Origin: the human T2T-CHM13v2.0 reference genome, Homo sapiens
Length of the DNA stretch: 64,000 nucleotides
Reading direction: 5' to 3' (one strand)
Assembly (NCBI RefSeq): GCF_009914755.1
Contig: NC_060937.1
Position numbers and translations under genes: made by a program. The notes under the pieces were generated by a model. That model worked only from the letters and a program-made list of their open reading frames with translations, did not search any database and was not told the origin of the DNA. Below, piece after piece: positions 22,797 to 53,200 of the stretch; the first letter of the stretch is position 1; every line of letters starts with the position of its first letter.

Positions 22797-23275
22797 CTTC
22801 CTTCCTTCTTTCCATCTTCCATTTTCTCTTTCCTTCCCTTGCCTTCTTCCTTCCTTTCTTCTTTTCCTCTTCCTTTTCTTTTCTTTTCCTTTTTCTTTTT
22901 TTTCTCCTTCCTTCCTTCTTTGCTTCCTTCTTTCTTTCCTCTGATTCTTCCTTCCCTCCTCCCTCCCTTCCTTTCTCCCTCCCTTCTTTTCTTCCTTCTT
23001 TTCTCTTATTCTTTCTTTCTCACTTCCTTGCTTTCTTTCTTTTTTTCTCCCGTCCTCCCTCCCTCCTTTTCTTCCTTCCTCCCTCCCTTCCTTTCCTCAT
23101 TTTTCCTTCCTTCCTTCCTTCCTTTTCCTCTTTATTTTCTTTCTTTGCCTTCCTCCCTTTTACCGTTCTCTCTTCCTCCTTTCCTTCCTCCCTTCCTCCT
23201 TCCTTTCTTTCTTTCTCACTTTCTTTCTCTCTCTGTTTCTTTCTTTCCCTTTCTTTCTTTCTTTCTTTCTTTTTT

Positions 23276-23323
<48 letters not shown>

Positions 23324-23490
23324 GTGTTCTTTCTTTCTTTTTTCTCCCTTCCTGCCTTTCTCCCTTCCTCCCTCCCTCCCTTCCTTCTCTCATTTCCTCC
23401 TTCTTTTCTTTCTTCTTTCTTTCTTTCCTTCCTTCCTTCTTTCCTTCCTTCTTTTTACTTTCTTTCTTTTCTTTTCTTTCTTTCTCTTTA
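22797..23490. repeat. ~700-bp polypyrimidine compound microsatellite (TTCC/TTTC/CT)
   Basis: Almost purely C/T on +, with a clean (TTTC)n core at ~23250-23320; explains the F/L/S/P-rich ORFs. Confidence 0.95.
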
Positions 23491-30455: not shown

Positions 30456-30639
30456 TCAGACAAAATCCCCCAACATTTAAGTGATTCCTAATAGCTTAAA
30501 ATCACTTTGAAAAATCCATATATTTATAACCTTTTCTTCCCTCTATGATTTCTGGTCAGCTTGGGTTTTGTTTTTTATACCATTTACTTCATCCTCGAAA
30601 AGATCTATTTTATGTCTATTTATTCTCATTTATTGACAT

Positions 30640-31092
30640 TGAGAAAAGAAAATAACTTTCATGTGAGAAAAGCAAGTCCTTTGAAATAATCAGGCCCAGA
30701 GAGTTATTCAAATGAGACAGCAGTTCTGTCCTGCTCCTCTTTGAGCTGTGTGTTCATCTAGGCTGCTTGCTGTTGCCACAGTAGCTATAAATTAATCAAT
30801 AATGCCACACCAGACACTACAATCCACACCCAATAATAGTGTAACAGTGTATAGCCAGTCACTAATAAATGTGATTTCCATAAGCCAATGATAATTTGTG
30901 ACAAACCTCTTTGCATCATCCCACTTCTTATCCCTTTTTTGCCTTTAAGAAACTGCTTGTTGCAAAGCTCCCAATGGAGTTCATATCCAAGGATACTTGG
31001 GTCTGTTTCTTCCAGGCAGCTGTCCTCATTTTGGCTCAAGTAAACTCTTTGAATTACGTTTCGTGCTTCAGCCCCTTCCACTTAGATTAACA
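30640..31092 (+). mobile_element. ERV1 MER4-group solo LTR (subfamily uncertain)
   Basis: TG start, ATCAGGCCCAGAGAG, AGCCAAT box, GCCTTTAAGAAA TATA-like, TTTGGCTCAAGTAAACTCTTT poly-A-signal region, ends TTAACA. Confidence 0.6.
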
Positions 31093-31207
31093 ACATGGAT
31101 TTGTGTCACCATGTACAGCAATTAAAATGTTTACGCTTTTCCCCTCGAGGGCACTGATGTGTTTTCCTGAGCACTTGGAATAGCTACATAGTGTTTACTT
31201 TCTATAT

Positions 31208-31400
31208 TACGGTTTCTCAACCTTGGTGTACTTACCTTTAGGACCAGAGGATTCTTTGCTGTGGGAGGCTGCCCTAGCAATGCTAGGTGTTTCGTTTGAC
31301 CTCTAAATTTCACACCTCCACCAGTCTTGACATCCCCACAATAACCCTAGTCATTGACAAATGTCTCCTGGGGAAAACTCTCCACCGGTTGACAGCTCAA
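31208..31400 (-). mobile_element. MER20 (hAT-Charlie)
   Basis: GGTTTCTCAACCTTGG...ATTCTTTGCTGTGGGAGGCTGCCCT...CATTGACAAATGTCTCCTGGGG...CCGGTTGA matches the MER20 reverse complement. Confidence 0.75.
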
Positions 31401-32402
31401 AGTTCTTGAAATATTGGAATTGTCAATTGAGTTTTTATGTTATCCAAAACAAATATTTTTCTTTGTTTTTAAACATCTACTTCCATCTGCTTATCTACTT
31501 ATTTTTACTTTTATTTGTAACTTAATTCCATCAAGGAGAGAGAGTGCATTTTCTGTTATGGTAAATTTTTGAAGAATGCATTGATTTTTTATGACCTGAT
31601 ATATGGATGATATGTAGATATTACATGTTTGTATTATCAAATTTCAGGGTGATAATAAAATAAATACTTATTTATATTGTCACTTTATATTAGTTATTTT
31701 CTTTCTTCACTACAGGAGTTTTTCAACCTGTAGGCTATTTTTCAATTCTAGGTTATCCAGTAGATTTTGAAATGTTAAGATTAAATATCTACTTCTCAAG
31801 CATTCATCTTTGCAAATGAATCAATCCCAAGCTCTTATAATGCACATCATATAAAGGGCAGATTAGTCAATATATGGTTCAGAATTAGTTATGTAACATC
31901 TATAAGAAAACTAGAAATTTAGATCCTTAACTCAGATAACAATAATCCAAATTAAAATTTGATTTCATTACATAATTTAAAATGACACCAGAATACTAGT
32001 AAAAATGTAGATAAGTTTATATAATCCTTTTTAGCTGTAGGACTTTATTATCATAAATTCAAATACAGGAGCCAAAGTAAGATTGAGACCTATAGTCAAG
32101 GGTTAAAGTGTACACATTATAGGGGCATGATTAATCTAATTTAAAGCATAACATGGAGAAATATTGCAAAACATACATGTTACTGTATTAATTGTTAATA
32201 TGTAATCATTAAGTGAGAACAAAGGTAAAGAGTAGCTACACACACACACACACAAAGTGCAATATTGTCAAATATATGTGATGTTCAGCTACACTAGAAA
32301 TCACACCTGTGTTTTCTCCACAGAAGTTTAAAGATTAAAAATCACAATAATATTTATTGTACATATGCAGATAAAGATACTCAAAATATTACCCTAAAAT
32401 AC

Positions 32403-32686
<284 letters not shown>

Positions 32687-33097
32687 AGCTTTTTGACGTA
32701 TTTCAAGATGGCTACTCGGAAGACTGGAAATAGCTTCTTCTACAAGAATAGCTGAAAAGTTGTGTTTGTTGGGGAGATTTGCATTTGTAGAGAAAATCTG
32801 CATTGATATAGACAGGCTTTCCCTGAGATACTCCCTTGTCTGTGTTTACGAAAGATTAACTGAGTCTGGCACGTTTACATTTCTAAAAACCATTTCTTAT
32901 CTACACTTCCCAAGAGGAGGGCTGCTCTCTGTGAGGTTTCATCCATGTAACAAGACTTCCTCTGCTGCCAGGCTCCTCTGTCTTCCTTGTCGTCACTTGT
33001 CTTCCGCAAAGACTGATTGACCAACCTACAGGTCTGTGTTTTCTGTAACCTCAAGACAGCATAGGCGTGTTGACTACCTTGCCATTCCTGGAGTTTT

Positions 33098-33200
33098 TAT
33101 ATATATAGTATATATTTGTATATCTATTTATAATATACAAATATTTGTATATATATTTATAATATACAAATATTTGTATATATATTTATATATATATTAT
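33098..33200. repeat. AT-rich (TA)n-derived repeat with a 29-bp direct duplication
   Basis: TATTTATAATATACAAATATTTGTATATA occurs twice in tandem. Confidence 0.85.
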
Positions 33201-34650
33201 GTAAACTCCAAGTGCATACTTGTGCACGTATCTGTAAACCTTTTTTTCCTGTTGATTTGAACATTATCTGTTTGTTTTATAGACTGAAATAATTAAAGCT
33301 TCAAGGGAAAAATTTAAACTTTCCTATAGAGAAAAGACAAATATGTAGGTGACAAATAATATTTAGAGTGTAAGACGCTTTTTAAAGGTATATTTGTAAT
33401 TTGTGTCAAAACATTTAAATATACATTTGTTGCTTTAACTATAAAATTTCAAATAATTTAAGCTAAATATATAGTATATGCAGAAAATTTAGCAATATTT
33501 GTATGTAGCACCTTACTGTGCATTACTGTAACCAGCTGTCTAATATAAAGAACTAATTAAGGTAACACCTACTTTTCAAATATCTCATTTTTTTCACAGA
33601 CCTATTAAATAAGACAAATAACATATAAACTTTGTTTTTAAATTTACAGAATAGTAGTTTTCAGAAGATGATTTATTTTAGCAAATTCCATCTTCACATT
33701 GTGCTATGCTTTTATGAGTTCCACCTGTTAAAGAATAATATTTTACTGCTGAATCTATCATGTGTGATATAATTGCTCATTATGTGCCTTAAAACACAAG
33801 CAATATAGTTATTTTCATCTTGCAGCAAATTAAAATCTTATCAGCCATTTAAAAACTCTAGAGTTGTCTTCTGGTTAATTATTTTAAACGTATTTTTCTC
33901 TCTATGTTTTTAATGAGTTGTCTTATCAAGGAGAAGAACTCAAGCTGATTATTCTTTTTTTTCTCTTCCATCCACCTCGCAGGTGCGTTAATAATTTCAT
34001 TTCCCAGAAAATGTTCTTTCATATCCATCTTACAAGATGAGAGAGCTTTTAAAATCTTCCATTCGGATGTGATAGGAGTAATGGAAAATATTCCAGCTTC
34101 ATGAATATGGTGATACAAATAGTTATCCGTCTAACCTCTTTCAGTGCCAAATGTATACTTTAGTCAGCGAATTACTCAGTTGACAGGTAATTTCTTCTGA
34201 AATCACTAATGAGAGGATCAGAGGTCTGGCTCTTGTCTGTACCGCATGTGACTCCCAGTGCAGACAATTGTTTCTATGGAGCACAGACAGTTGAAAGGAT
34301 TGACTTCCTGCCTAGAATAGTTTCTGCTGTGCTTCTTATCCTTCTTGTGGAGATTTCAGATTATCTGAATTGCTTTTCTATCTTAAGAAAAAACTCAACA
34401 ATTCTCCCACCTGAGAGGAATGTAAACTGTAGTAAGTTAGCAGAACCAATCCGTAAAGTTTTACATTGTTTTTTTGTAAAATGCAGCTTTGGTGTCTCCA
34501 TCACTAACCTTTTCTATCCCTCATTGCTCTTTCTTTGACTGCAATAGGATACCTCTAGGCAAATCTGTATTCCCGAGACAGAGTGCCGTTTTGGTTAGCT
34601 ATAAGTACACTCAATGGTAGGCGGAAATACTAGTTTTTATCTACGGCGAA

Positions 34651-37600
34651 ATTCCATTCCACTACACTCCACTCCACTCCACTCCACTCCACGCTATTCA
34701 GTTCCATTCCACTCCATTCCATTCCACTTCATTCCACTCCACTGCACTCCACTTCACCGCATTCCATTCCATTCCACTTCACTCCATTCCACTCCACTCC
34801 ACTCCATTCCACTCCATTCCATTCCACTCCAATACACTCCATTCCACTCCATTCCATTCCATTCCGTTCCATTCCATTCCATTCCACTCCACTCAATTCC
34901 ATTCCACTCCATTCCACTCCACTCCAATCCACTCCACTCCACTCCACTCCATTGCATTCCATTCCATTCTAAATCCATTCCATTACATTCCATAATAAAT
35001 CCGCTCCATTCCCTTCCTTTCTTTCGACAGGATTTCACTCTGTCACTCAGGCTGGAGTGCAGTGCACAATCTCAGTTCACATTTCTTTTCACCATTCCAT
35101 TCCATGCCATTGTATTCCATTCTATTCCACTCCACTCCGTACAATTCCATTCCTCCCCATTACATTCCACTCCACTACCTTCCACTCCACTCCTCTCCAC
35201 TCCATTCAATTCCATTCTACCCCATTCCATTCCACTTCATTCCACTCCATTCCACTCCACTTCACCGCATTCCAATCGATTCCATTCGATACCATTCCAT
35301 TCCATTCCATTCCATTCCATTCCATTTGATTCCACTTGATTTCATTTACATTCCATTTCACTCCATTCCATTCCACTCCATTCCACTCCACTTCATTCCA
35401 CTCCACTCCATTCCACTCCATTCCACTGCACTCCAATCCACTCCACTCAACTTCAATCAACTCCACTCCATTCCATTCCACTCCATTCTACACCTTTCCA
35501 CTATACTCCATTCCATTCCATCCCATTCCTTTCCACTCCATTCCACTCCACTCCACTACACCCCACTCCACTCCACTGCACTCCATTCCATTCCATTCCA
35601 TAAGAATCCATACCACACCATTCCACTCCACTCCACTCCACTCCATGATAATCCACTCTACTCCACTCCATTCCATTCCATTCCATTCCATTCCATTTTA
35701 AATCCATTCAATTCCATTCCATTCCATTTTAAATCCATTCAATTCCATTCCTTTCTTTTGACAGGATCTCACTAGGTCACCCAGGCTGGAGTGCAGTGCA
35801 CAATCTCAGCTCACATTTCATTTCACCATTCCATTCCATTCCATTGCATTCCATTCCGCTTCACTCCACTCCACTCTGTTCCATTCCATTCCTTCCCTTT
35901 CCATTCCACTCCACTCCGTTCCATTCCATTCCTTCCCTTTCCATTCCACTCCACTCCATTCCACTCCACTCCATTGAATTCGATTCCACCCCATTCCATT
36001 CCACTCCATTCCACTCCACTCCACACCATTTCACCGCATTCCATTCCATTCCACTCCATTCCATTCCATTCCATTTGATTCCTTTCGATTCCATTCCAAT
36101 TCATTCCATTCCATTCCACTCCACTCCACTCCACTCCACTCCATTTAATTCCATTCCACTCCATTCCATTCCACACCATTCCACTCCACTCCACAACATT
36201 TCACCGCATTCCGTTCCATTCCACTCCTTTCCATTCCATTCCATTTGATTCCTTTCGATTCCATTCCAATTCATTCCATTCCATTCCACTCCACTCCACT
36301 CCATTGAACTGCACTCCATTCCACTCCACCCATTCCATTCCATTCCACTCCATTCCACTCCACTCCAGTCCATTCCACTCTATTACACTCCACTCAATTC
36401 CACTCCATTCCACTGCACTCAATTACATTCCACTCCACCCCATACCATTCCACTCCAGTCCATTCCACTCCACTCCAGTCCATTCCAATCCACTCCATTT
36501 CATTCCACTCCACTCCATTCCACTCCACTCCACTCCTCTCCACTCCACTCCACTCCATTCCATTCCATCCCACTCCATTCCAGTCCTCTCCATTCCACTG
36601 CACTCCACTCCACTCCACGCCACTCCACTCCACTCCATTCCATTCTAAATCCATTCCTTTCCATTCCTTTCTTTTGACAGGGTCTCAGTCTATCACCCAG
36701 GCTGCACTGAGGTGCACAATCTCAGTTCATATTTCATTTCCCCATTCCATTCCATTCCATTCCATTCCATTCCATTCCATTCCATTCCATTCTATTCCAA
36801 TGCATTCCATTCCATTCCATTGCATTCCATTCCACTCCACTCCACCCCACTCCAGTCAATTCCATTCCTTCCCATTCCATTCGATTTGATTCCATTCCAC
36901 TCCACTCCACTCCATTGAATTCCATTCCACCCCATTCCATTCCACTCCATTCCACTGCACTCCAATCCACTCCACTCAACTTCAATCCACTCCACTCAAC
37001 TCCAGTCCACTGCACTCCATTCCATTCCACTCCATTCTACACCTTTCCACTCCACTCCATTCCATCCCATCCCATTCCATTCCACTCCATTCCACTCCAC
37101 TCCACTACACCCCACTCCACTCCACTGCACTCCATTCCATTCCATTCCATAAGAATCCATACCACACCATTCCACTCCACTCCACTCCACTCCACTCCAT
37201 GATAATCCACTCTACTCCACTCCATTCCATTCCATTCCATTTTAAATCCATTCAATTCCATTCCTTTCTTTTGACAGGATCTCACTAGGTCACCCAGGCT
37301 GCAGTGCAGTGCACAATCTCAGCTCACATTTCATTTCACCATTCCATTCCATTCCATTCCATTGCATTCCATTCCACTCCACCCCACCCCACTCCAGTCA
37401 ATTCCATTCCTTCCCATTCCATTCGATTTGATTCCATTCCACTCCACTCCACTCCATTGAATTCCATTCCACCCCATTCCATTCCACTCCATTCCACTGT
37501 ACTCCAATCCACTCCACTCAACTTCAATCCACTCCACTCAACTCCAGTCCACTGCACTCCATTCCATTCCACTCCATTCTACACCTTTCCACTCCACTCC

Positions 37601-40600
37601 ATTCCATTCCATCCCATTCCATTCCACTCCATTCCACTCCACTCCACTACACCCCACTCCACTCCACTGCACTCCATTCCATTCCATTCCATAAGAATCC
37701 ATACCACACCATTCTATTCCACTCCACTCCACTCCACTCCATGATAATCCACTCTAATCCACTCCACTCCATTCCAGTCCATTCCATTTTAAATCCATTC
37801 AATTCCATTCCTTTCTTTTGACAGGATCTCACTAGGTCACCCAGGCTGCAGTGCAGTGCACAATCTCAGCTCACATTTCATTTCACCATTCCATTCCATT
37901 CCATTCCATTCCATTCCATTCCATTCCATTCCATTCCGCTTCACTCCACTCCACTCCACTCCGTTCCATTCCACTCCACTCCACTCCGTTCCATTCCATT
38001 CCTTCCCTTTCCATTCCACTCCACTCCATTCCACTCCACTCCATTGAATTCGATTCCACCCCATTCCATTCCACTTCATTCCACTCCACTCCACACCATT
38101 TCACCACATTCCATTCCATTCCATTTGATTCCTTTTGATTCCATTCCAATTCATTCCATTCCATTCCACTCCACTCCACTCCACTCAATTCCATTCCACC
38201 CCATTCCATTGCACACCATTCCACTCCACTCCACATTTCACCGCATTCCGTTCCATTCCACTCCATTCCATTCCATTCCATTTGATTCCTTTCGATTCCA
38301 TTCCAATTCATTCCATTCCATTCCACTCCACTCCACTCCATTGAACTGCACTCCATTCCACTCCACTCCACCCCATTCCATTCCATTCCACTCCATTCCA
38401 CTCCACTTCAGTCCATTCCACTCCATTCCACTCCACTCAATTCCACTCCATTCCACTGCACTCAATTACATTCCACTCCACCCCATACCATTCCATTCCA
38501 GTCCATTCCATTCCATTCCACTCCAGTCCATTCCACTCCACTCCAGTCCATTCCAATCCACTCCATTTCATTCCACTCCACTCCATTCCATTCCACTCCA
38601 CTTCACTCCACTCCACTCCATTCCACTCCACTCCACTCCAGTGTTCTCCATTCCACTGCAGTCCACTCCATTCCACTCTGTTCCATTCCACTGCACTCAA
38701 CTCCCCTCCACTCCACTCCAATCCACTATATTCCATTCTATTCCATTCTACACCTTTCCACTCCATTCCACTCCACTCAAAACCATTCCATCCCATTCCA
38801 TTCCTCTCCATTCCACTCCAATCCACTCCACTCCACTCCACTCCACTCTATTCCATTCCATTCCATAACAATCCATACCACTCAATTCCACTCCACTCCA
38901 CTCCACTCCACGCCACTGCACTCCACTCCACTCAATTCCATTCCATTCCATTGTAAATCCATTCCATTCCACTCCTTTCTTTTGATGGGATCTCACTCTG
39001 TCACCCAGGCTGGAGTTCAGTGCACAATCTTAGCTAACATTTCATGTCACCATTCCATTCCATTCCATTCCATTCCTTTCGATTCCATTCCATTTCATTC
39101 CATTCCATTCCATTCCACTCCACTCCACCCCACTACACTCCATTCCACTCTATTCCTCTACACTCCATTCCACTACACTCCACTCAACTCCACTCCACTC
39201 CAGTCAACTCCATTCCATTCCATTCCATTCTATAAATTTCCACTCCTCTCCACTCCATTCCATTCCATCCCATTCCATTCCACTCCATTCCAGTCCACTC
39301 CATTCCACCCCACTCCAATACACTCCACTCCATTACATTCCGTTCCATAACAATCCATACCACTCCATTCCACTGCACTCCACTCCACTCCACGCCACTT
39401 CATTCCACTCCATTCCATTACATTCCATTCTAAATCCATTCCATTCCAATCCTTTCTTTCAACAGGATCTCACTCTATCAACCAGGCTGCACTGCACTGC
39501 ACAATCTAAGCTCACATTTCATTTCACCATTCCATTCCATTCCATTGCATTCTATTCCATTCCAATGCATTCCATTCCATTCCACTCCACTCCACTACAC
39601 TCCATTCAATTCCATGCCTTCCGATTCCATTCCATTCAATTCCATTCCACTCCACTCCACTCCATTGAATTCCATTCCACCCCATTCCATTCCACTCCAT
39701 TCCACTTCAGCACATTCCATTCGATTCCATTCAATGCCATTTGTTTCCATTCGATTCAATTCCATACAATTCCATTCGATTCCATTTTTTCCTTTTGATT
39801 CCGTTTGATTCCATTCGATTCCATTCGATTCGATTCCATTCGGTTCGATTTGATTTGATTCGATTCCATTCGATTCCATACGATTCCATTCCGTTCCATT
39901 CCGCTCCACTCCATTCCACTCCACTCCATTGCACTCCACTCCATTCCACCTCATACCATTCCACTTCATTCCATTCCATTCCATTTCATTCCATTGCATT
40001 CTAAATCCATTCCATTCCATTCCTTTCTTTTGACAGGATCTCACTCTCTCACCCAAGCTGGAGTGCAGTGCACAATCTCAGCTCACATTTCAATTCACCA
40101 TTCCATGCCATTCTATTCCATTTCATTCCATTCCATTCCATTCCACTCCATTGCATTCCATTCCTTTCCACTCCACTCCACTTCACTCCATTCCACTCCA
40201 CTCCATTCCCTTTCATTCCAATCCACTCCACTCCATTCCACTCCATTTCACTAAACTCCACTCCACTCCATTCCACTCCACTCCACTCCATTCCATTCCA
40301 TTCTACACCTTTCCACTTCACTCCACTCCACTCCACTCCATTCCATTCCACTCCACTCCACTCCATTCCACTCCACTCCACCCCACAGCACTCCACTTCA
40401 CTCCATTGCATTCCATTCCATAACAATCCATACCATTCTGCTCCACTCCACTCCACTCCCAGCCACTTCACTCCACTTCATTCCATTACATTCCATTGTA
40501 AATCTATTCCATTCCATTCCTTTTTTTATGAAAGGATCTCACTCTGTCACCCAGGTTGGAGTGCAGTGCACAGTCTCAGCTCACATATCATTTCACTATT

Positions 40601-43600
40601 CCAGACCATTCCATTCCATTGCATTCCATTCCACACCACTCCACTCCACTCCATTCAATTCCATTCCTTCCCAGTGCATTCCACTCCAATCCATTCCACT
40701 CCACTTCACTCCACTCCATTAAATTTCATTCCACCCCATTCCATTCCACTCCACTCCAGTTCACCACATTCCATTCAATTCCATTCGATGCCATTCCATT
40801 CCATTCCAATCCATTCCATTCCATTCCAATCCATTCCACTTCACTCCATTCCACTCCATTCCACTCCACTCCACTCCATTCCATTCCCTTCCATTCCATT
40901 CCATTCCACTCCATTCCATTCCATTCCATTCCACTCAATTCCATTCCACTGCACTCCACTCCATTCCACTCAATTCCATTCCACTGCACTCCACTCCATT
41001 CCACTCCACTCTGCTCGACTCCATTCCATGCCATTCCACCCCCCTCCATTTCACTTCTTTTCACTCCATTCCTTTCCATTCCATTCCATTCCATACCACT
41101 CCACTCCATGCCATTCCACCCCCCTCCATGTCACTTCTTTTCAATCCATTCCTTTACATTCCATTCCATTCCATTCCACTCCACTCCATTCCACTCCACT
41201 CCATTCCACTCCACTCCACTCCACTCCGTTCCATTACGTTCCATTCTAAATCCATTCCATTATATTGCATTCTAAATCCATTCCATTCCCTTCCTTTCTT
41301 TCGACAGGATCTCACTCTTTCTCCCAGGCTAGAGTGCAGTGCGCAATCTCAGCTCACATTTCATTGCACCATTCAGTTCTATTCCATTCCATTGCATTTC
41401 ATTCCACTCCACTCTGTTCAATCCCATTCCTTCCCATTCCATTCCACTCCACTCCACTCCACGCTAATCCACTCCACTCCACTCCATTACATTCTATTTT
41501 AAATCCATTCAATTCCATTCCTTTCTTTGGACAGGATCGCACTACATCACCCGGGCTGCATTGCACTGCAGAATCTCAGCTCACATTTCATTTCACCATT
41601 CCATTCCATTCCATTCCATTGCATTCCATTCCACTCCACTCCCCTGCACTCCGTTCAAATCCATTCCTTCCCATTCCATTTGATTCCATTCCACTCCACT
41701 CCAGTCCATTGAATTCCATTCCACCCCATTCCATTCCACTCCATTCCACTCCACTCCATTCCAGTTCTCCGTATTCCATTCGATTCCATTTGATTCGATT
41801 CCATTCAATTCCATTCGATTCCATTTTTTCCATTCAATTCCGTTCGATTCCATTTGATTCCATTTTCTATTCCATTCGATTCGATTCTATTCCATTCGAT
41901 TCCATTCCACTCCATTCCACTCCACTCCACTCCACTCTATTCAACTCCACTCCATTCCACCCCATTCCATTCCACCGCATTCCATTCCATTCCATTTCAA
42001 TCCATTCCATTCTAAATCCATTCCAATCCATTATTTTCTTTTGACAGGATCTCACTCTCTCACCCAGGCTGGAGGGCAGTGCACAATCTCAGCTCACATT
42101 TCGTTTCACCATTCCATGCCATTCCACTCCATTGCATTCGATTCCATTCCATTCCACTCCATTGCATTCCATTCCATTCCACTCCACTCCACTCCACTCC
42201 ATTCCACTCCACTCCATTCCAGTCCAGTCCACTCCATTCCATTCCACTCCACTCCATTTCATTCGAACCCACTCCACTCCTTTCCACTCCATTCCAGTAA
42301 ACTCCACTCCACTCCACTCCATTCCACTCCATGCCATTCCACTCCATTCCATTCCACTCTACTCAATTCCACTCCACTCCACTCCACTCCATTCCATTCC
42401 ATTCTACACCTTTCCACTCTACTCCACTCAACTCCACTCCATTCCATTACATCGCATTCCATGCCACTCCATTCAACTCCACTCCACTCAACCCCACAGC
42501 ACTCCACTCCACTCCATTGAATTCCATTCCATAACAATCCATACCATTCCATTCCACTCCACTCCAATCCACTCCAAGCCACTCTATTCCACTCCATTCC
42601 ATTACATTCCATTGTAAATCCATTCCATTCCTTTCCGTTCTTATGACAGGATCTCACTCTGTCACTCAAGTTGGAGTACAGTGCACAGTCTCAGCTGACA
42701 TATCATTTCACCATTCCAGTCCATTCCATTCCATTGCATTCCATTCCACACCACTCCACTCCACTCCGTTCAATTCCATTCCTTCCCAGTCCATTCCACT
42801 CCACTCCATTCCATTCCACTTCACTCCACTCCATTAAATTACGTTCCACCCCATTCCATTCCACTCCATTCCACTCCACTCCACTTCACCACATTCCATT
42901 CAATTCCATTCGATGACTTTCAATTCCATTCTATTCGATTCCATTCCATTCCATTTGATTCCATTCCATTTGATTCCAATCCATTCCATTCCATTACACT
43001 CAATTCCACTCTATTCCAATCCACTCTACTCCACTCCATTCCACTCTATTCCAATCCAATCTACTCCACTCCACTCCATTCCATTCCCTTCCATTGTATG
43101 GCATTCCACTCCATTCCATTCCATTCCACTCAATGTCGTTCTATTCCACTCCACTCCATTTAACTCCACTCCGCTCGACTGCATTCCATGCCATTCCACC
43201 CCACTCCATTTCACTTCTCTTCACTCCATTCCATTCCATTCCACTCCATTTCACTCCACTCCATTCCGCTCCACTCCAATCTACTCCGTTTCATTACATT
43301 CCATTCTAAATCCATTCCATTATATTCCATTCTAAATCCATTTCATTCCCTTCATTTCTTTCGACAGGATCTCACACCGTCACCCAGGCTGGAATGCAGT
43401 GCGCAATCTCGGCTCACATTTCATTTCAGCATTCCATTTGATTCCATTCCATTGCATTTCATTCTACTCCACTCCACTCCACTCAGTTCAATTCCATTCC
43501 TTCCCATTCCTTTCCACTCCACTCCATTCTACTCCACTCCACTCCATTCATTTCTATTCCACCCCTTTTCATTCCACTCCATTCAAATCCACTCCACTGC

Positions 43601-46600
43601 ATTTCACCGCATTCCATTTGATTCTGTTCCATTCATTTCCATTCCATTGCCTTCAACTCCATTCAATTCCTTTCGATTCCATTCCATTTGATTCCATTTG
43701 ATTCGATTCGATTCGATTTCATTCCATTCCATTGCCTTCCATTACATTCCATTCCACTTCACTCCCTTCCGTTTCATTCTATTCCATTCCACTACACCCC
43801 ACTATACTCCAATACACTCCACTCCATTCCACTGCACTGCAATCCACTCCGCTAAACTCCACTCCACTCCTCTCCATTGCATTCTATTCTACACCTTTCC
43901 ACTCCACTCCACTCCACTTCACCGCATTCCAATCGATTCCATTCGATGCCATTCGATTCCATTCCATTCCATTTCATTCCATTCCATTCCATTTGATTCG
44001 ATTCGATTCCATTCCATTCCATTGCACTCCACTCCACTCCACTCCATTCCACTCCAATCCATTCAACTCCATTCCACTGCCCTTCAATCCACTCCACTCA
44101 TATCCAATCCACTCCACTCCACTCCCTTCCAATCCATTCTACACCATTCCACTCCACTCCACTCCACTCCATTACATTTCATCTCATTCCATTCCACTCC
44201 ATTCCACTCCACTACACCCCACTCCGGTCCACTGAATTCCATTTGATTCCATAAGAATCCATACAACTCCATTCCACTCCAGTCCACTCCACGCTATTCC
44301 ACTCTACTCCACTCAATTCTATTACCTTCCATTTAAAATCCATTCCATTCCATTCCTTTCTTTTGACAGGATCTCACTAGGTCACCCAGGCTGGATTGCA
44401 GTGCATAATCTCAGCTCACATTTGATTTCTCCATTCCATTCCATTGTATTCCATTCCACTTCACTCCACTCCACTCCACTCCATTCAATTCCATTCCTTC
44501 CCATCCCATTCTACTCCTCGCCATTCCACTCCACTCCACTCCATTGAATTCCATTCCACCCCATTCCATTCCAGTCCATTCCACTCCACTCCACAATATT
44601 TCACCACATTCCATTCCATTCCATTCCATTCCATTCCATTCCAATTTCTTTCGATTCCATTCCATTTCATTCCGTTCCATTCCATTCCACTCCACTTCAC
44701 TCCACTCCATTACACTGCACTCCATTCCACTCCACTCCACTCCATTCCATTCCATTCCACTCCATTCCACTCCAGTCAGGTCCATTCTACTCCATTCCAC
44801 TCCACTGCATTCCACTCCACTCCAATGCACTCCATTCCATTCCACTCCACTCCATACCATTCCACCCCAGTCCATTCCATTCCACTCCAGTCCATTCCAC
44901 TCCACTGCAGTCCATTCCACTCCATTCCATTCCATTCCACTCCACTCCATTCCATTCCACTCCACTTCACTCCACTCCACTTCACTCCACTCTGCTCCAT
45001 TCCACTCCACTCAACTCCATTCCACTCCATTCCATTCCACTGCACTCAACTCCCCTCCAATCCACTCCACTCCACTATACTTCATTACATTCCATTCTAC
45101 ACCTTTCCACTCCACTCCACTCCCTTCCATTCCTTTCCATCTCATTCCATTCCACTCCATTACACTCCACTCCACTTCACCCCACTCCACTCCATTCCAT
45201 TCCATTCTATAAGAATCCATACCACTCCATTCCACTCCACTCCACTCCACACGACTCCACTCCACTCCAGTCCATTCCATTACATTCCATTTTATATCTG
45301 TTCCATTCCATTCGTTTCTTTTGACAGGATCTCACTAGGTCACCCAAGCTGGAGTGCAGTGCACAATCTCAGCTCACAATTCATTTCACCACTCCATTCC
45401 ATTGCATTCCACTCCACTCCACTAAACTCCACTCTGTTCAATTCCATTCCTTCCCATTCCATTCCACTCGACTCCATGCCACTCCACTGCACTCCATTCC
45501 ATTTAATTCCATTCCACCCCATTCCATTCCACTCCATTCCACTCCTCTCCACAACATTTCATCGCATTCCATTCCATTCCATTCCACCACACTACACTCC
45601 ATTGCACTGCACTCCATGCCACTCCACTCCAATCCATTCCATTCCATTCCACTCCAATCCACTCCACTCCAGTCCATTCCACTCCACTCCATTCTACTCC
45701 AGTCCACTCTACTGCACTCCAGTCCATTCCACTCCACCCCATACCATTCCACTCCACTCCATTCCATTCCACACCAGTCCATTCCACTCCACTCCATTGC
45801 TTTCCACTCCACTCCATTCCATTCCACTCCACTCCATTCACTCCACTCCACTCCACTCTGCTCCATTCCACTCCACTCCACTCCACTCCTCTCCATTCCA
45901 CTCCACTGCATTCCACTCCATTCCATAACACTGCACTCAACTCCCCTCCCCTTCACTCCACTATATTCCATTCCTTTCCATTCTACACCTTTCCACTCCA
46001 CTCTACTCCTCTCCATTCCATTCCATCCCAATCCATTCCACTCCATTCCCCTCCACACCACTCCACTCCACCCAACTATACTCCACTCAACTCCATTCCA
46101 TTCCATTCCATAACAGTACATACCACTAAATTCCACTCCACTCTACTCTATGCCACTGCACTCCACTTCATTCCATTCCATCCCATTCCATTCCACTCCA
46201 TTCCACTCCACTCCACCCCACTTCACTCCACTCCACTCCATTCCATTCCATTCCATAAAAATCTATACAACTCAATTCCACTCCACTCCACTCCATTCCA
46301 CGCCACTCCACTCCACTCCACTCAATTACATTACATTCCATTGTAAATCCATTCCATTCCATTCCTTTCTTTTGAAGGAATCTCACTCTGTCACCTAGGC
46401 TGGAGTGCAGTGCACAATCTCAGCTCACATTTCATTTCACCATTCTATTCCATTCCATTCCATTGCATTCCATTCCATTCCTTTCGATTCCATTCCACTC
46501 CACCCCACTCCACTCCATTCCACTACACTCCATTCCACTCCATTCCATTCCATTCCACTCAACTCCACTCCACTCCACTCGACTCAATTCCATTCCATTG

Positions 46601-49600
46601 CATTCCATTCTACACATTTCCTCTCCACTCCACTCCGTTCCATTCCATTCCATTCCATCCCACTGCATTCCAGTCCTCTCCATTCCACCCCCCACCACTC
46701 CACTCCACTCCATTCCATTCCATAACAATCCATACCTCTCCATTCCACTGCACTCCACTCCACGCCACTCCACTCCACTCCATTCTATTCTAAATCCATT
46801 CCTTTCCATTCCTTTCTTTTGACAGGGTCTCACTCTATCACCCAGGCTGCACTGAGGTGCACAATCTCAGTTCATATTTCATTTCCCCATTCCATTCCAT
46901 TCCATTCCATTCCATTCCATTCCATTCCAATGCATTCCATTCCATTCCATTGCATTCCATTCGACTCCACTCCACTCCACTCCAGTCAATTCCATTCCTT
47001 CCCATTCCATTCGGTTTGATTCCATTCCACTCCACTCCACTCCATTGAATTCCATTCCACCCCATTCCATTCCACTCCATTCCACTGCACTCCATTCCTC
47101 TTCACCGCATTCCATTCGATTCCATTGATGCCATTTGATTCCATTTGATTCGATTCCATTCGAATCCATTTTTTCATTCGATTCCATTCGATTCCATTCG
47201 ACTCGATTCCATTCAATTCGATTTGATTCCATTCGATTCCATTCCATTACATTCCACTCCACTCCACTCCATTCCATTCCATTCCATTCCGTTTTTCTAA
47301 ATCCATTCCATTCCATTCCATTCCATTCCATTCCATTCCATTCCATTTTTCTAAATCCATTCCATTCCATTCCATTCCATTCCATTCTTTCTAAATCCAT
47401 TCCATTGCATTCCTTTCTTTTCACAGGATCTCACTCTCTTACCCAGGCTGGAGTGTAGTGCACAATCTCAGCTCACATTTCATTTCACCATTCTATGCCA
47501 TTCCATTCCATTGCATTCTATTCCATTCCATTCCAATCCTTTGCATTCCATTCCATTCCACTCCACTCTACTCCATTCCACTTCACTCCATTCCATTCCA
47601 GTCCACTCCATTCCTCACCACTCCACTCCACAACACTCCACTCCCTTTCATTCCAATCCACTCCACTCCATTCCACTAAACTAAACTGTACTCCACACCA
47701 CTCCACTCCATTCCAATCCACTCCACTCCATTCCACTCAATTCCACTCCATTCCACTCCATTCCATTCCATTCTACACATTTCCACTCCATTCCACTCCA
47801 CTCCTCTCCATTCCATTCCATCCCATTCCATTCCACTTCATTCCACTCCACTACACCCCACAGCACTCCATTCCACCCCATTGAATTCCATTCCATAACA
47901 ATCCATACCATTCCATTCCACTCCACTCCATTCCATTCCACTCCACTCCACTGCACTCCATTCCGTTACATTCCTTTCTATATCCATTCCATTATATTCC
48001 ACTCTAAATCCGTTCCATTATATTCCATTCTAAATCCATTCCATTCCCTTCCTTTCTTTCAACAGGATCTCACTCTGTCACCCAGTATGGAGTGCAGTGT
48101 AGATTCTCAGCTCACATTTCATTTCACCATTCCATTCCATTGTATTCCATTCCACTTCACTCCACTCCACTCCGATCAATTCCATTCCTTCCCATTCCAT
48201 TCCATTCCATGCCACTCCACTCCACTCCATTGAAGTCCATTCCACCCCTTTGCTTTCCACTGCATTCCACTACCCTCCACTCCACTTCATCACATTCCAT
48301 TCGATTTCATTCTACACCATTCGAATCTTTCAATTTCATTCCATTCGATTCCATTAGATTCCATTTTTTCCATTCGATACCATTCGATTCCATTCGACTC
48401 CATTCCATTGCATTCGATTCAATTTGATTCGAGTTGTTTCGATTCAATTAGATTCCATTTGATTCCATTTGTTTCCATTCCATTACATTCCATTACATTC
48501 CACTCCATTCCATTACTTTCTGCTCCATTCCATTCCACTCCACTCAAATCCTTTCCACTCCACTCCATTCCATTCCATTCGACTCCACTCCATTTCACTC
48601 CATTATATTTCATTCCATTCCATTCCACTCCACTCCACTCGATTCCATTCCACTCCATTCCACTCCAATCCACTCCACTCCACTCCATTCCATTACATTC
48701 CATTCTAAATCCATTCCATTCCATTCCATTCTGAATCCATTCCATTCTCTTCCTTTCTTTCTACAGGATCTCACTGTGTAACCCAGGCTGGAGTGCAGTG
48801 CATAATCTCAGCTCACATTTCATTTCACCATTCCATTCGATTCCATTCCATTGCATTCCATTCCACTCCACTCCACTCCACTCCGCTCCACTCTGTTCAA
48901 TTCCATTCCTTCCCATTCCATTCCATTCCAATCCATTCCACTCCTCTCCACTCCATTCAATTCCATTCCACCCCATTCCATTCCACTCCATTCCAAGAAA
49001 CTCCACTCCATTTCACCGCATTCCATTAGATTCCATTCAATGCCACTCGATTCCATTTGATTCAATTCCATTCGATTCCTTTCAATTTCATTTTTTTGCA
49101 TTCGATTCAATTCAATTTCTTTTGATTCAATTCAAATCCTTTCGATTCCATATGATTCGATTTGATTTGAGTCGATTTGATTCAAAACCATTTGATTCCA
49201 TTCTTTTCCATTCTATTCCATTCGATTCCATTTGACTCCATTCCATTCGATTCTGTTCCATTCCATTCCACTCCATTCCATTCCATTCCATTTGATTAAA
49301 TTCCATTCCATTCCATTCCATTCAATTCCATTCCACTCCACTCAATCCTACTCCACTCTAATCATTCCCATTCCTTCCCATTCCATTCCACTCCCCTCAC
49401 TTCCACTCCAGTCTACTCCACTCCGTTCAATTCCATTCCCCTCCATTACATTCCAATCCATTCTGCTCCACTCCTCTCCGTTTCACCACATTACATTTGA
49501 TTCACTTCAATGCCATTCGATTCCATTTGATTCGAATCCATTCGATTCCATTGAATTCCGATCTATTCCATTTGATTTGATTCGATTCATTTGGAGTCGA

Positions 49601-50290
49601 TTCAATTCGAGTCGAGTCGATTTGATTCGATTCCATTCCATTCTACTCCATTCCATTCCATTCCATTCCACTCCATTCTTTTCCACTCCACTCCATTCCA
49701 TTCCACTCCACTACATTCCATTCCTCTCCATTCCACTGCTTTCCACTCCATTACATTCCACCCCATTCCATTCCACTCCACTCCACTCCATTTCACTCCA
49801 CTCCATTCCATTCAACTCCATTCCACTGCTTTCCACTCCATTACACTCCACTACATTCCATTCCATTCCACTTCACTCAATTCCACTCCATTCCATTCCA
49901 CACAATTCCACTTCACTCTACTCCACTCCAATCCACTGCACTCCACTTCATTCCATTCAATTCCATTTTAAATCCAATCCAATAATTTCCATTCTAAGTC
50001 CATTCCATTCCCTTCCTTTCTTTCGACAGGATCTCACTCTGTCACCCAGGCTGGAGTGTAGTGCACAATCTCAAATAACATTTTATTTCACCATTCCATT
50101 GCATTCCATTCTATTGCATTCCATTCCACTCCACTCCACTCCGTTCAATTCCACTCCTTCCCATTCCATTCCACTCCAGTACATTCCACTCCACTCCATT
50201 CAATTCCATTCCACCCCAGACCGTTCCACTGCACTCCACGCCACTCCTTTCCAGTTCACTGTATACCATTTGATTAAATTTGATGTCATT
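34651..50290 (+). repeat. Satellite III (HSat3) array, mixed CATTC/CACTC (GGAAT/GGAGT) type with embedded Alu fragments
   Basis: Continuous 5-bp periodicity with abundant CACTC; landmarks CTACACCTTTCC, CATAA(G/C)AATCCATACC, TAAATCC and TTGAATTCC; C-rich strand on + throughout. Confidence 0.95.
35026..50079 (-). mobile_element. 22 co-amplified copies of a ~55-bp Alu 3'-terminal fragment inside the satellite
   Basis: Consensus GACAGGATCTCACTCTGTCACCCAGGCTGGAGTGCAGTGCACAATCTCAGCTCAC starting at 35026, 35760, 36676, 37273, 37820, 38984, 39461, 40032, 40530, 41303, 41530, 42043, 42645, 43363, 44365, 45323, 46374, 46821, 47422, 48061, 48762, 50025 (manual count). Confidence 0.93.
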
Positions 50291-53200
50291 TGGTTCCATT
50301 CCATTTAACTCTATTCCATTCCACACGATTCCATTTGATTCCAGTCCATTCATTTCCCTTCCCTTGCATTCCATTCCATTCCAATCCATTCCATTCCATT
50401 CTATTCCATTCCATTTCAATCCATTAAATTCCATTCCCTTCCATTCCTTTCCATTACATTCCATTCCTCTCCATTCCATTTCATTCTTTTACATTCCATT
50501 CGGGTTTATTCCATTCCATTCCATTCGAATCCATTCCATTGCACTCGCGTTGATTCAATTCCATTGCTTTCCATTCGAGTCCATTCCATTTCATTCGAGT
50601 CCATTCCATTCCATTCAAGGCCACTTCATTCCATTCCATTCCTTTCCATTCCATTCTTTTCGGGTCCATTCAATTCAAATGCATTCCATTCCATTCCATT
50701 CCATTCCATTCCATTCCATTCCATTCCTTTCCAAAATTCGAGTCCATTCCAATCCATTCCATTACACTCGAGTCATTTCCATTCCATTTGCGTCCATTCA
50801 ATTCCATTCCATTCCTTTCCATTCCATTCATTTCCATTCCATTCCATTTCATTACAGTCCATTCCATTCCATTCCATTCGTGTCCATTCCATTCCATTGC
50901 ATTCCATTCCATTCGATTCCATTCCTTTCCATTCAATTCCAATCGTGTCCATTCTATTCCAATCCACTTCAGTTCATTCCATTCCATTCCATTCCATTCC
51001 ATTTGAGTCCATTCCATTCCATTCGAGTCCATTCCATTCCATTTCATTCGAGTCCCTTCCATTCCATTCCATTCCATTCTATTCCTGTTGAGTGCATTCC
51101 ATTGCATTGCCTTCCATTCGAGTGCATTCCGTTCCATTCGACTCCATTCCATTCCATTCCAATACATTCCATTCCATTCTATTCCATTCCATTTCAATCC
51201 ATCCCATTCCATTCCATTCCATTCCATTCCATTCCTTTCCATTCCATTCCATTCTGTTCCATTCCATTCCATTGCATTCCATTCCTTTCCATTCCATTCC
51301 ATTCTGTTCCATTCCATTCTGGTCAATTCCTTTCCATTCCATTCCATTCCATTCCTCTCCATTCCATTCTGTTCCATTCCATTCGGGTCCATTCCATTCC
51401 GTTCCATTCCATTGCACTCAAGTTGATTCCAATCCATTCCATTCCATTAGAGTCCATTCCATTTCATTTGAGTCCATTCCTCTCCATTCCATTCCATTCG
51501 AGGCCACTTCATTCCATTCCATTCCATTCCATTCTTTTCGGGTCCATTCAATTCAATTGTTTTCTATTCCATTCCATTCCATTCCATTTCATTCCATTCC
51601 ATTCGAGTCCATTTCATTCCATTCCTCTCCATTCCATTCCATTCTGTTCCATTCCACTCGGGTCCATTCCATTCCATTCCATTCGAATCCATTCCATTAC
51701 ATTCCATTCCATTCCACTCGAGTTGATTCCATTCCATTCCATTCGAGTTCATTCAATTTCATTTGAGTCCATTCCATTCCATTCCATTCGAGGCCACTTT
51801 ATTCCATTCCATTCCATTCCATTCCATTCCATTCCATTCCATTCCATAATTTGAGTCCATTCAATTCCATTCCATTACACTCGAGGCTTTTCCATTCCAT
51901 TCAAGTCCATTCAATTCGATTCTATTCCTTTCTATTTCATTCAATTCCATTCCATTCGACTGCATTCCATTTGGTTCCATTCAATTAGAGTCCATTCCAT
52001 TCGTGTCCATTCCATTCCATTCCATTCAATTGCAATCCATTTGTTTCCATTTTGTTCCAGTCCTTTCCATTCGAGTCCATTCCATTCCAGTCCATTCCAT
52101 TTGATTTCATTCCATTCAAATCCATTCCATTGGATTCGATTCCACTCGATTCCAGTCCGTTCCATTTTCTTACATTCCATTCTATTCCATTCCATTGCAT
52201 TCCATTCCATTCCATTTGATTACATTCCATTTGATTCCATTCTACTCAAATCAATTACATTGCAATCCATTACATTTGAGTCCTTTCTATTCCAGTCCAT
52301 TCCATTCCTGTCCATTCCATTCGATTCCATTCCATTCGACTCCATTCCATACTGTTGCATTCCTTTCGATTCCATTCTGTTCGAATAAATTGCATTCGAG
52401 AACATTCCTTTCGAGTCCATTCTATTTGAGTCCATTACATTCAAGTCCATTACATTTGAGTCCATTCCATTCCATTCCATTCGATGCCATGCCATTCGAT
52501 TCTCTTCCATTCAAATACAATCGATTAGAGTCCATTCCATTCCATTCCACTCCATTCATTGCCAATCCATTCAATTCTATTGAATTCGAATCCATTCCAT
52601 TCCATTGTGTTCCATCCGATTCCATTCCATTCTTCCTTTCCATTCCATTCCATTTCATTCGTTTCCATTCAATTTGTCTGCATTCCACTCCAGTCCATAC
52701 CGTTCGAGTCTATTCCATTCCAGTCCATTCCATTCGAGTCCATTCCACTCGATATCATTCCATTATGCTACATTCCATTCTCTTCTTTTCGATTCCATTC
52801 AATTCCATTCCATTCGATTCCATTCAATTCCATTGCTTTCGACTCCATTCCATTCGAGTGCATTCCATTCCATTCCATTACATTCTGTTCTTTTCGATTC
52901 CAATCCGTTCCATTCCATTTTGTTCCTGTCCATTCCCTTCGAGTCCATTCCATTTCAGTCCATTCCACTCGATTCCACTCCATTCCATTCTATTACATTG
53001 CATTCTATTCCATTCCATTGCATTCCATTCCATTCCATTTGATTACATTCCATTTGATTCCATTACATTTAATTCAATTACATTGCAATCCATTTCATTC
53101 CAGTCCATTCCATTCCTGTCCATTCCATTCAATTCCATTACATACTATTGCATTCCATTTGATTAAATTCTATTCAAATAAATTCCATTCGAGACCATTC

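What the first reader, a model, noticed from the sequence alone, without database searches (positions are those of the whole stretch)
34651..50290. Composite satellite: a CATTC/CACTC array punctuated 22 times by one captured Alu 3'-end fragment
Seen: a ~55-bp antisense Alu piece recurs every 227-1263 bp (mean ~714), always in the same orientation and context (TAAATCCATTCCATTCC-TTTCTTTT-[Alu]-ATTTCATTTCACC). The copies share the same truncation point and two lesions relative to the Alu consensus: TTTGACAG instead of TTTGAGACAG, and CAGTGCAC instead of CAGTGGC(A/G)C. So one founder was amplified with the satellite; these are not 22 insertions. Known: HSat1B/DYZ2 contains an Alu fragment, and mixed GGAAT/GGAGT satellite III subfamilies exist. 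I do not know whether this Alu-bearing HSat3 unit has been formally described. It provides a built-in ruler for satellite evolution and is the best candidate for a novel element in this window.
Basis: partly seen in the sequence, partly recalled or inferred. Interest (0 to 1): 0.8.

Follow-up and report, generated by a model that had tools for sequence, protein, structure and literature searches.

The report
Alu-tagged human satellite 3 array
This is an ordinary stretch of a known human satellite 3 subfamily whose repeat carries a 63-base scrap of one ancient Alu element, a scrap that recurs thousands of times across many chromosomes and was already noted in general terms in the complete-genome papers.

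Summary
Window 34651-50290 is a CATTC/CACTC pentamer array with 22 same-strand copies of an antisense Alu 3'-end piece. Each copy is exactly 63 bp with identical ends; shuffles expect 0.

- **Not local.** A 25-mer across the Alu/satellite junction hits 3070 places in the assembly, reversed control 0. The truncated listings show 12 chromosomes.
- **Copied here, not grown here.** The array with its flanks is 99.65% collinear with chr21 and 98.2% with an inverted chr14 copy. It is 82-84% collinear with chr17. 17 of 22 copies have a closer relative on chr17/chr10 than in their own array.
- **Known subfamily.** Only the published HSat3A4 (pTRS-47 type) 24-mer matches: 6 hits, against 0 for the 13 other subfamily 24-mers.
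- **Only one lesion is universal.** The left-end lesion and the truncation are universal in 303 sampled copies. The one-G deletion marks a derived lineage: 197/197 in eight arrays, 11/106 in six others.
- **Already in print in general terms.** T2T papers say HSat3 units include TE fragments and are intermingled with Alu fragments.

Already known; low interest.

The parts
34651..50290 (+). HSat3 array of mixed CATTC/CACTC pentamers (HSat3A4 type) carrying the 22 Alu pieces
   Evidence: Pentamer counts per kb; TRF period 5; HSat3A4 24-mer at 36858, 37400, 45440, 46988, 48178 and 48899; 99.65% collinear with chr21
35018..35080 (+). Alu 3'-end piece 1 (antisense, 63 bp)
35752..35814 (+). Alu piece 2
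36668..36730 (+). Alu piece 3 (98% like piece 18 with flanks)
37265..37327 (+). Alu piece 4 (identical to piece 5; local 547-bp duplication)
37812..37874 (+). Alu piece 5
38976..39038 (+). Alu piece 6
39453..39515 (+). Alu piece 7
40024..40086 (+). Alu piece 8
40522..40584 (+). Alu piece 9
41295..41357 (+). Alu piece 10
41522..41584 (+). Alu piece 11 (shortest spacing, 227 bp after piece 10)
42035..42097 (+). Alu piece 12
42637..42699 (+). Alu piece 13
43355..43417 (+). Alu piece 14
44357..44419 (+). Alu piece 15
45315..45377 (+). Alu piece 16
46366..46428 (+). Alu piece 17
46813..46875 (+). Alu piece 18
47414..47476 (+). Alu piece 19
48053..48115 (+). Alu piece 20
48754..48816 (+). Alu piece 21
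50017..50079 (+). Alu piece 22 (last; 1263 bp after piece 21)
30496..34650 (.). Non-satellite flank copied together with the array onto other chromosomes
   Evidence: 95.0% to chr17:22.53 Mb (inverted) over window 30496-34992; 95.6-97.5% pieces to chr22, chr14:8.77 Mb and chr10; 99.65% to chr21 from 31812, the edge of what I fetched

Best explanation
Window 34651-50290 is a diverged array of human satellite 3 subfamily A4 (the pTRS-47 kind), built from CATTC and CACTC pentamers. It has no higher-order period.

Its irregular units each hold a 63-bp relic: the 3' end of one Alu element with a short tail remnant, antisense to the CATTC strand.

Proposed history, with each step marked shown or inferred:
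1. A single Alu end entered an ancestral pentamer array once. Either it inserted 5'-truncated, or it inserted whole and then lost its 5' part (inferred).
2. It was multiplied passively with the surrounding satellite by tandem duplication or unequal exchange (inferred from the tandem, one-orientation layout).
3. The pentamer tracts between the copies grew and shrank by whole pentamers (shown by the spacing residues).
4. In one descendant lineage a G was lost and an upstream TAAATCC motif arose (shown by the distribution of these characters).
5. Blocks of many kb, including unique flank, were then copied to chr17, chr10 and the acrocentric short arms (shown by collinear alignments).
6. The chr13 copy has most recently been kept almost identical to chr21, and to an inverted chr14 copy. 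These three chromosomes carry a known pseudo-homologous region (identity shown; that the array lies inside that region is inferred).

The Alu piece most likely does nothing. It is a neutral hitchhiker that serves as a position marker.
For: - **One founder.** All 303 sampled copies (22 in the window, 281 in 23 fetched stretches) lie antisense to the CATTC strand. They share one consensus with the same ends. 0 of 303 have the GAGAC form of real Alus. The 22 window copies are each exactly 63 bp.
- **Genome-wide.** The 25-mer junction at up to 3 mismatches hits 3070 places (1679 forward, 1391 reverse), with 0 for the reversed control. That pattern recovers 276 of my 303 copies. The truncated listings show chr1, 3, 4, 9, 10, 13, 14, 15, 16, 17, 21 and 22.
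- **Subfamily.** The HSat3A4 24-mer from Table 1 of PMC4022460 hits 6 times; the other 13 subfamily 24-mers hit 0 times. It is present in 21 of the 22 fetched stretches and window belonging to the G-deleted lineage, the exception being the 5-kb edge stretch L016. Among the six arrays of the other lineage it occurs once, on chr16.
- **Nested lineages.** The G deletion is in 197 of 197 copies in eight arrays and in 11 of 106 copies in six arrays. On a FastTree tree the lineage label needs 8 changes, against 78-91 when shuffled. With the Alu columns alone it needs 15, against 82-86.
- **Block copying.** Identity to chr21 is 99.65% over 20 kb. Identity to inverted chr14 is 98.2% over 13.5 kb. chr14:8.77 Mb and chr22 are about 88%. 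chr17 is 82-84% collinear over 7.5-9.3 kb, with its unique flank at 95%.
- **Old diversity.** Window copies are 85.7% alike pairwise and 91.4% like the consensus. 17 of 22 have a closer relative on chr17/chr10 than in their own array. The array label on the tree is nearly random: 208 changes against 220-227 shuffled.
- **Pentamer slippage.** Spacing modulo 5 equals 2 in 87 of 189 and 56 of 100 spacings in the two lineages, where 20% is expected (p about 1e-15 each).
- **No sign of selection.** The Alu part is no better conserved than its satellite flanks (85.7% against 87.3% pairwise).
Against: - Membership in HSat3A4 rests on a single published 24-mer, not the full k-mer library or the cenSat track.
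- The 1.37-kb period reported for pTRS-47 is not seen here. Self-alignment is about 72% at every offset, and the only strong k-mer period (about 540 bp) comes from one local duplication.
- The lineage split is not clean. 11 of 106 copies in the G-retaining arrays lack the G (6 of them on chr16), and the tree needs 8-15 label changes rather than 1.
- In the window's own 21 spacings the modulo-5 signal is weak: 7 at residue 2, 6 at 3, 5 at 1, 3 at 4.
- The mode of entry is not shown. No target-site duplication can be read in a pentamer repeat.
- Rhie et al. call such fragments AluY derived from PAR1. I could neither confirm nor refute the subfamily from about 55 bases.
- My sample is 226 kb of arrays chosen from the best-matching hits, so it is biased towards well-preserved copies.
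Confidence: 0.85

Rival explanations
1. Many independent Alu insertions into a preferred site of the satellite, later truncated alike.
For: Alus are abundant. Three ordinary Alus sit in the non-satellite part of the window.
Against: All 303 sampled copies have the same orientation. The 22 window copies have the same 63-bp length. Both ends and the left lesion are shared, with 0 of 303 in the GAGAC form. Only 2 of 303 match a pattern for Alu continuing past the junction, and on inspection that match sits inside the piece, so both have the usual right end.
Confidence: 0.01
2. The 22 copies arose by recent tandem amplification at this chr13 locus, making this a young local composite satellite with its own unit.
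For: Two copies are identical and lie 547 bp apart (pieces 4 and 5). Three more copies (pieces 2, 3 and 18) have a 98% partner in the array. A k-mer period of about 540 bp is present.
Against: Self-alignment is only about 72% at all offsets. Mean pairwise identity of the pieces is 85.7%. 17 of 22 copies are closer to copies on chr17/chr10 than to any copy in the same array. The array is collinear over 7.5-9.3 kb with chr17, and over its whole length with chr21.
Confidence: 0.04
3. The Alu piece is kept because it does something in the satellite, for example as a protein-binding or boundary site or part of a transcript.
For: Length is constant, with no indel in 22 of 22 copies, amid a satellite full of indels. 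About 3000 copies are retained.
Against: Its sequence is no better conserved than the flanking satellite (85.7% against 87.3%). The lack of indels is expected for non-repetitive sequence, which cannot slip. No Rfam family matches anywhere in the window. By recall, the Alu polymerase III promoter boxes lie in the 5' part, which is missing here.
Confidence: 0.05
4. The piece did not enter as a 5'-truncated retrotransposition. It is what remains of a full-length Alu after a deletion, or a patch copied in during break repair.
For: 5'-truncated Alu insertions are uncommon (recalled). The sequence just after the truncation point (ATTTCATTTCACC) is not a clean pentamer and not Alu, which could be a deletion or repair scar.
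Against: A T-rich run directly abuts the Alu 3' end, as a poly(A) tail would after retrotransposition. Nothing else discriminates.
Confidence: 0.3

Closest known systems
HSat3 subfamily A4 (pTRS-47 type satellite III of the acrocentric short arms; Altemose et al. 2014, PMC4022460; Choo et al. 1990, which I could not read)
   Same: Both are pentamer-derived satellite. The subfamily-specific 24-mer is present 6 times, against none for the 13 other subfamily 24-mers. The location is an acrocentric short arm. From my recall of the 1990 abstract, pTRS-47 is described as a GGAAT/GGAGT mixture, which matches the CATTC/CACTC mix here.
   Different: No 1.37-kb higher-order period exists in this array. 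Related arrays also sit on chr17 and chr10, outside the localisation listed for A4 in 2014. I could not compare with the clone sequence.
HSat3-associated Alu fragments described in the T2T-Y paper (Rhie et al., 10.1101/2022.12.01.518724; passages read)
   Same: [quoted passage not shown] I find the same: the array label is nearly random on the tree.
   Different: The passages I read give no unit, no truncation point, no copy number and no single-founder statement. They call the fragments AluY derived from PAR1. I could not see their figure or supplements, so I cannot prove that their fragments are these 63-bp pieces.
HSat1B / DYZ2 (Alu-bearing composite satellite, mostly on chrY)
   Same: A satellite whose repeating unit holds one old Alu-derived part that was amplified passively with it.
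   Different: HSat1B is an unrelated AT-rich repeat of about 2.5 kb with a regular unit and highly homogenised copies. Here the host is a pentamer satellite with irregular units of 227-1263 bp, old diverged copies and only 63 bp of Alu. Rhie et al. report a deep split between the two Alu clades.
Nested tandem repeats and composite satellites as defined in the T2T centromere and repeat papers
   Same: [quoted passage not shown] This array fits that description.
   Different: It is not in the class they call composite satellites, which are made entirely of combinations of TEs. The text of Hoyt et al. 2021 that I searched holds no mention of HSat3 or CATTC.

Membership tests
Human satellite 3 (HSat3) | Derived from a tandem (CATTC)n pentamer | tested here: met
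   TRF gives period 5, unit ATTCC, 34651-63979. There are 48-74 CATTC plus 27-64 CACTC per kb in every full kilobase of the array, 35-50 kb.
HSat3 subfamily A4 | Subfamily-specific 24-mers of Altemose et al. 2014 | tested here: met
   The one A4 24-mer printed in Table 1 occurs 6 times in the array. The 24-mers of the other 13 subfamilies occur 0 times. Only one 24-mer per subfamily was available, so the test is thin.
HSat3 subfamily A4 | Localisation on acrocentric chromosomes 13, 14, 15, 21, 22 (and Y) | tested here: met
   The window is on chr13p. Close paralogues lie on chr21, chr14 and chr22. Related arrays with the A4 24-mer also lie on chr17 and chr10.
pTRS-47 higher-order satellite III | Tandem higher-order unit of about 1.37 kb | tested here: not met
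   Self-alignment is about 72% at all offsets. There is no strong k-mer peak at 1.37 kb: the leading peaks are about 540, 1540, 1510 and 2110 bp. This array is a diverged relative, not the homogeneous array that was cloned.
pTRS-47 higher-order satellite III | Sequence identity to the cloned unit | not testable with these tools
PMC332295 is not held.
Alu (SINE) | Sequence homology to Alu, here the 3' end with tail | tested here: met
   The piece aligns base for base with the 3' ends of three ordinary Alus of the window, from the T-rich run to GCTCAC. After that point the Alus continue and the pieces do not. The core 27-mer gives 20 matches against 0 expected.
Alu (SINE) | Complete dimeric element with internal promoter | tested here: not met
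   Only 63 bp including the tail remnant are present in 22 of 22 copies. That the promoter boxes lie in the missing 5' part is recalled knowledge.
AluY subfamily (label used in the T2T-Y paper) | Subfamily-diagnostic positions | not testable with these tools
   No Alu consensus library is at hand. By recall, the few diagnostic sites inside these roughly 55 bases point in different directions, and every position that is CpG in at least one real Alu of the window reads CA here.
Composite satellite (T2T sense) | Tandem array whose unit is made of combinations of TEs | tested here: not met
   63 of about 714 bp per unit are TE-derived. The rest is pentamer satellite.

The most novel reading that the evidence does not exclude
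The roughly 3000 Alu scraps in human satellite 3 may all descend from one insertion, forming at least two nested lineages: an older one that keeps the Alu GG, and a younger G-deleted one that carries the A4 marker. If so, this has not been stated in print. It would give a rooted, countable marker for the order in which HSat3 blocks spread between chr3/4/15/16, chr17/10 and the acrocentric short arms. It would also question the published view that these fragments are AluY seeded from PAR1.
Probability: 0.25. Interest if true: 0.4.

Novelty: already known. Interest (0 to 1): 0.22.

Why it matters
As it stands this is a confirmation. The array is a known satellite 3 subfamily, and the presence of Alu fragments in HSat3 units is already stated in the T2T centromere and Y-chromosome papers.

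The useful residue is practical:
- The 63-bp piece and its junction 25-mer form a specific tag for this branch of HSat3. The tag gives 3070 hits and no control hits.
- The G deletion splits that branch in two.
- The unique flank (95% between chr13 and chr17) against the satellite body (82-84%) gives a paired measure of how much faster the satellite appears to diverge than its flank.

These markers could help order the spread of HSat3 blocks among acrocentric and pericentromeric regions once ape T2T genomes are searched.

Tried and rejected
- **Fuzzy regex.** It found only 11 copies. I replaced it with blastn-short, which found 22.
- **Self-comparison of the array.** A blastn run timed out. I redid it with dc-megablast and a k-mer spacing scan. 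Neither found a higher-order period.
- **Rfam.** A scan of the whole window at gathering thresholds gave 0 matches.
A smaller request went through. The chr17:27.8 Mb array is therefore sampled over only 10 kb, and chr14:1.44 Mb, chr15:1.65 Mb, chr21:2.12 Mb, chr1, chr9 and chrY not at all.
- **Papers not held.** Choo 1990 (PMC332295), Choo 1992 (PMC1682629) and Jarmuz 2007 (PMC1821104). Bandyopadhyay 2001 I saw only as a citation.
- **Literature search for an explicit description of this unit.** Apart from the general statements, I found nothing. There was no 'Alu' in the HSat3 transcription-factor paper or in PMC8125562. PMC4257996 also has none, and Hoyt et al. 2021 has no HSat3 or CATTC.
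- **Assigning the piece to AluJ, S or Y.** I weighed diagnostic sites from memory and they tie, so I make no call.
- **Reading a target-site duplication at the two ends.** The pentamer context makes any match meaningless.
- **An SVA-derived origin.** SVAs hold antisense Alu-like parts, but I dropped the idea because the piece ends in its own tail remnant.
Full report
**1. The observation**

Reading 34500-37000 shows the switch at 34651 from unique sequence to CATTC/CACTC pentamers, with the first Alu-like blocks embedded in it.

- A 27-base Alu core pattern at up to 3 mismatches gives 20 matches in the window. The expectation from 100 dinucleotide shuffles is 0.00.
- A blastn-short search with one copy (35753-35822) gives 22 plus-strand copies between 35019 and 50073. 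It also gives four short hits to ordinary Alus elsewhere in the window.
- A MAFFT alignment of the 22 copies with three ordinary Alus of the window shows the same left context in every copy. It shows a T-rich run, the Alu 3' end, and a common stop after GCTCAC, where the real Alus continue.
- Exact coordinates show every piece is 63 bp with no indel.
- Spacings are 227-1263 bp, mean 714.2.

**2. The host array**

TRF calls one 5-bp array (unit ATTCC) from 34651 to 63979. Per-kb counts show two parts:
- From 34.65 to about 50.3 kb, CATTC and CACTC are mixed and the Alu pieces occur.
- From about 50.3 kb to the end of the window, CACTC nearly vanishes and there are no Alu pieces.

I took the 14 subfamily-specific 24-mers printed in Table 1 of Altemose et al. 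2014 (PMC4022460, passages read). Only the HSat3A4 one occurs, 6 times, all inside the first part. That paper ties HSat3A4 to the clone pTRS-47, with a 1366-bp unit.

This array has no such period. Self-alignment is about 72% at any offset. The only strong k-mer spacing, about 540 bp, comes from one local duplication that made pieces 4 and 5 identical.

**3. Not a local element**

The window's own assembly could be searched.
- A 96-base copy with flanks gave 1067 first-look candidates. The 40 that were scored lay on chr3, 4, 10, 13, 14, 17, 21 and 22 at 94-100% identity.
- A 40-base stretch across the right junction gave 243 matches at up to 3 mismatches, control 0.
- A 25-base junction stretch gave 3070 matches (1679 forward, 1391 reverse), control 0 and 0. 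In my sample this pattern recovers 276 of 303 copies.
- The truncated listings together show 12 chromosomes: 1, 3, 4, 9, 10, 13, 14, 15, 16, 17, 21 and 22. I did not see whether chrY is hit.

**4. Sample of other arrays**

I fetched 23 stretches, 226 kb in all. With the window this gives 303 copies.
- All 303 lie antisense to the CATTC strand.
- None has the GAGAC form of real Alus.
- The per-array consensus lines have the same two ends.

**5. Two lineages**

The arrays fall into two lineages.

| | G-deleted lineage | G-retaining lineage |
|---|---|---|
| Arrays | the window, chr21:8.1, chr14:8.3, chr14:8.78, chr22:11.58, chr17:22.5, chr17:27.8, chr10:38.9 Mb | chr3:95.5, chr4:49.5, chr13:5.1, chr13:10.6, chr15:14.3, chr16:35.6 Mb |
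| Copies lacking the G | 197 of 197 | 11 of 106 (6 on chr16) |
| Upstream TAAATCC motif | mostly present | mostly absent |
| A4 24-mer | present | absent, except once on chr16 |
| Median spacing per array | about 580-735 bp | about 320-450 bp |

On a FastTree tree of the 303 copies the lineage label needs 8 changes, against 78-91 after shuffling. With the Alu columns alone it needs 15, against 82-86.

The left lesion and the truncation are therefore ancestral. The G deletion is a later, lineage-defining change.

**6. How the array came to be here**

- The array with what I hold of its flanks (window 31812-51786) is 99.65% identical and collinear with chr21:8.09-8.11 Mb.
- It is 98.2% identical to an inverted copy at chr14:8.30 Mb.
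- It is about 88% identical to chr14:8.77 Mb and chr22:11.58 Mb.
- It is 82-84% identical, yet collinear over 7.5-9.3 kb, with two chr17 arrays.
- The unique flank (window 30496-34992) is 95.0% identical to chr17:22.53 Mb in inverted orientation. Shorter pieces of the flank are 95.6-97.5% identical to chr22, chr14 and chr10.

So the array was copied as blocks together with its flank. In line with this, 17 of 22 window copies have a closer relative on chr17/chr10 than in their own array. The same count, 17 of 22, holds for chr14:8.77/chr22, with 3 ties. The array label is close to random on the tree: 208 changes against 220-227 shuffled.

The copies are old: 85.7% mean pairwise identity and 91.4% to the consensus.

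The orientation pattern matches a known region. The pseudo-homologous region around SST1 is direct on chr13 and chr21 and inverted on chr14 (Guarracino et al., 10.1101/2022.08.15.504037, passages read). That the array lies inside that region is my inference from orientation, identity and distance.

If the flank evolves at the usual primate neutral rate (recalled, about 1e-9 per site per year), 5% between chr13 and chr17 is of the order of 20 million years. The founder would be older still. This is inference only.

**7. Mechanism**

- **Shown:** tandem, one-orientation layout; block copying; nested lineages.
- **Shown:** spacing modulo 5 equals 2 in 87 of 189 and 56 of 100 spacings (p about 1e-15 each). 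Unit length therefore changes mostly by whole pentamers between fixed markers. The window's own 21 spacings show this only weakly (7 at residue 2).
- **Inferred:** a single entry of an Alu end, followed by passive amplification through unequal exchange.
- **Unresolved:** whether entry was a 5'-truncated retrotransposition, or a full insertion followed by deletion.

The piece is no better conserved than its satellite flanks (85.7% against 87.3%), and Rfam finds nothing in the window. I see no sign of function.

**8. What is known**

- Altemose et al. [quoted passage not shown] They cite Bandyopadhyay et al. 2001, which I could not read.
- Rhie et al. [quoted passage not shown] They built a tree of these fragments and found no clustering by chromosome and no local homogenisation. 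They conclude that the fragments derive from AluY elements of PAR1.
- My searches for a description of this exact unit found nothing further (look-ups).
- I did not see figures or supplements. Three older papers are not held. The clone papers or the T2T supplements may well describe the unit.

**9. Verdict**

The finding is real and the single-founder reading is right. However, the array is an ordinary, old, block-duplicated member of a known HSat3 subfamily, and the HSat3-Alu association is in print. The points I did not find stated are:
- one 63-bp founder with about 3000 descendants;
- two nested lineages;
- a junction tag;
- a flank-versus-satellite divergence pair.

These are modest refinements.

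Noticed in passing
window 50291-63979: A second HSat3 block directly abuts the Alu-bearing array. It is rich in CATTC with almost no CACTC and no Alu pieces, and has motifs such as CATTCGGGTT and CACTCGCGTTGATTC. None of the 14 published subfamily 24-mers occurs in it.
   Followed up: partly
window 30496-34650: Non-satellite flank of the array is shared with chr17:22.53 Mb (inverted, 95.0%), and in pieces with chr22:11.575 Mb, chr14:8.77 Mb and chr10:38.99 Mb (95.6-97.5%). Over the same chromosome pair (chr13-chr17) the satellite body is only 82-84% identical.
   Followed up: partly
window 31812-51786; L001-L004: This stretch is 99.65% identical to chr21:8.093-8.113 Mb in direct orientation. 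Part of it is 98.2% identical to chr14:8.297-8.310 Mb in inverted orientation, the orientation pattern published for the acrocentric pseudo-homologous region around SST1.
   Followed up: partly
L017-L020, L022, L023 (chr16:35.64, chr4:49.54, chr3:95.53, chr13:10.64, chr15:14.35, chr13:5.14 Mb): A second lineage of Alu-bearing CATTC/CACTC satellite keeps the Alu GG and has shorter units (per-array median spacing about 320-450 bp). chr4 and chr13:10.64 Mb are 95.9% collinear over 10 kb. chr3 and chr13:5.14 Mb match chr4 at 86-94%.
   Followed up: partly
window 8870-9969: About 1.1 kb of diverged TCATT/ATTTC-type tandem repeat with periods 5, 13 and 18. It lies far from the main satellite and was masked in NCBI's file.
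   Followed up: no
window 12573-13158: GC-rich tandem repeat of 22/38-bp units (GCAAAAAGCCGCGGCGGCGGGG-like) inside a kilobase of 62% G+C. Elsewhere the non-satellite part of the window is 24-42% per kilobase, apart from 50% at 27-28 kb.
   Followed up: no
window 22797-23485: CTTC/CTTT-type simple repeat of about 0.7 kb.
   Followed up: no
window 35018-50079 (all 22 pieces): Five positions in the piece read CG in at least one of the three real Alus of the window. All five read CA in the satellite consensus, that is the same strand direction of decay each time. By a sign test I worked out by hand (no call), five of five in one direction is not significant (two-sided p about 0.06).
   Followed up: no
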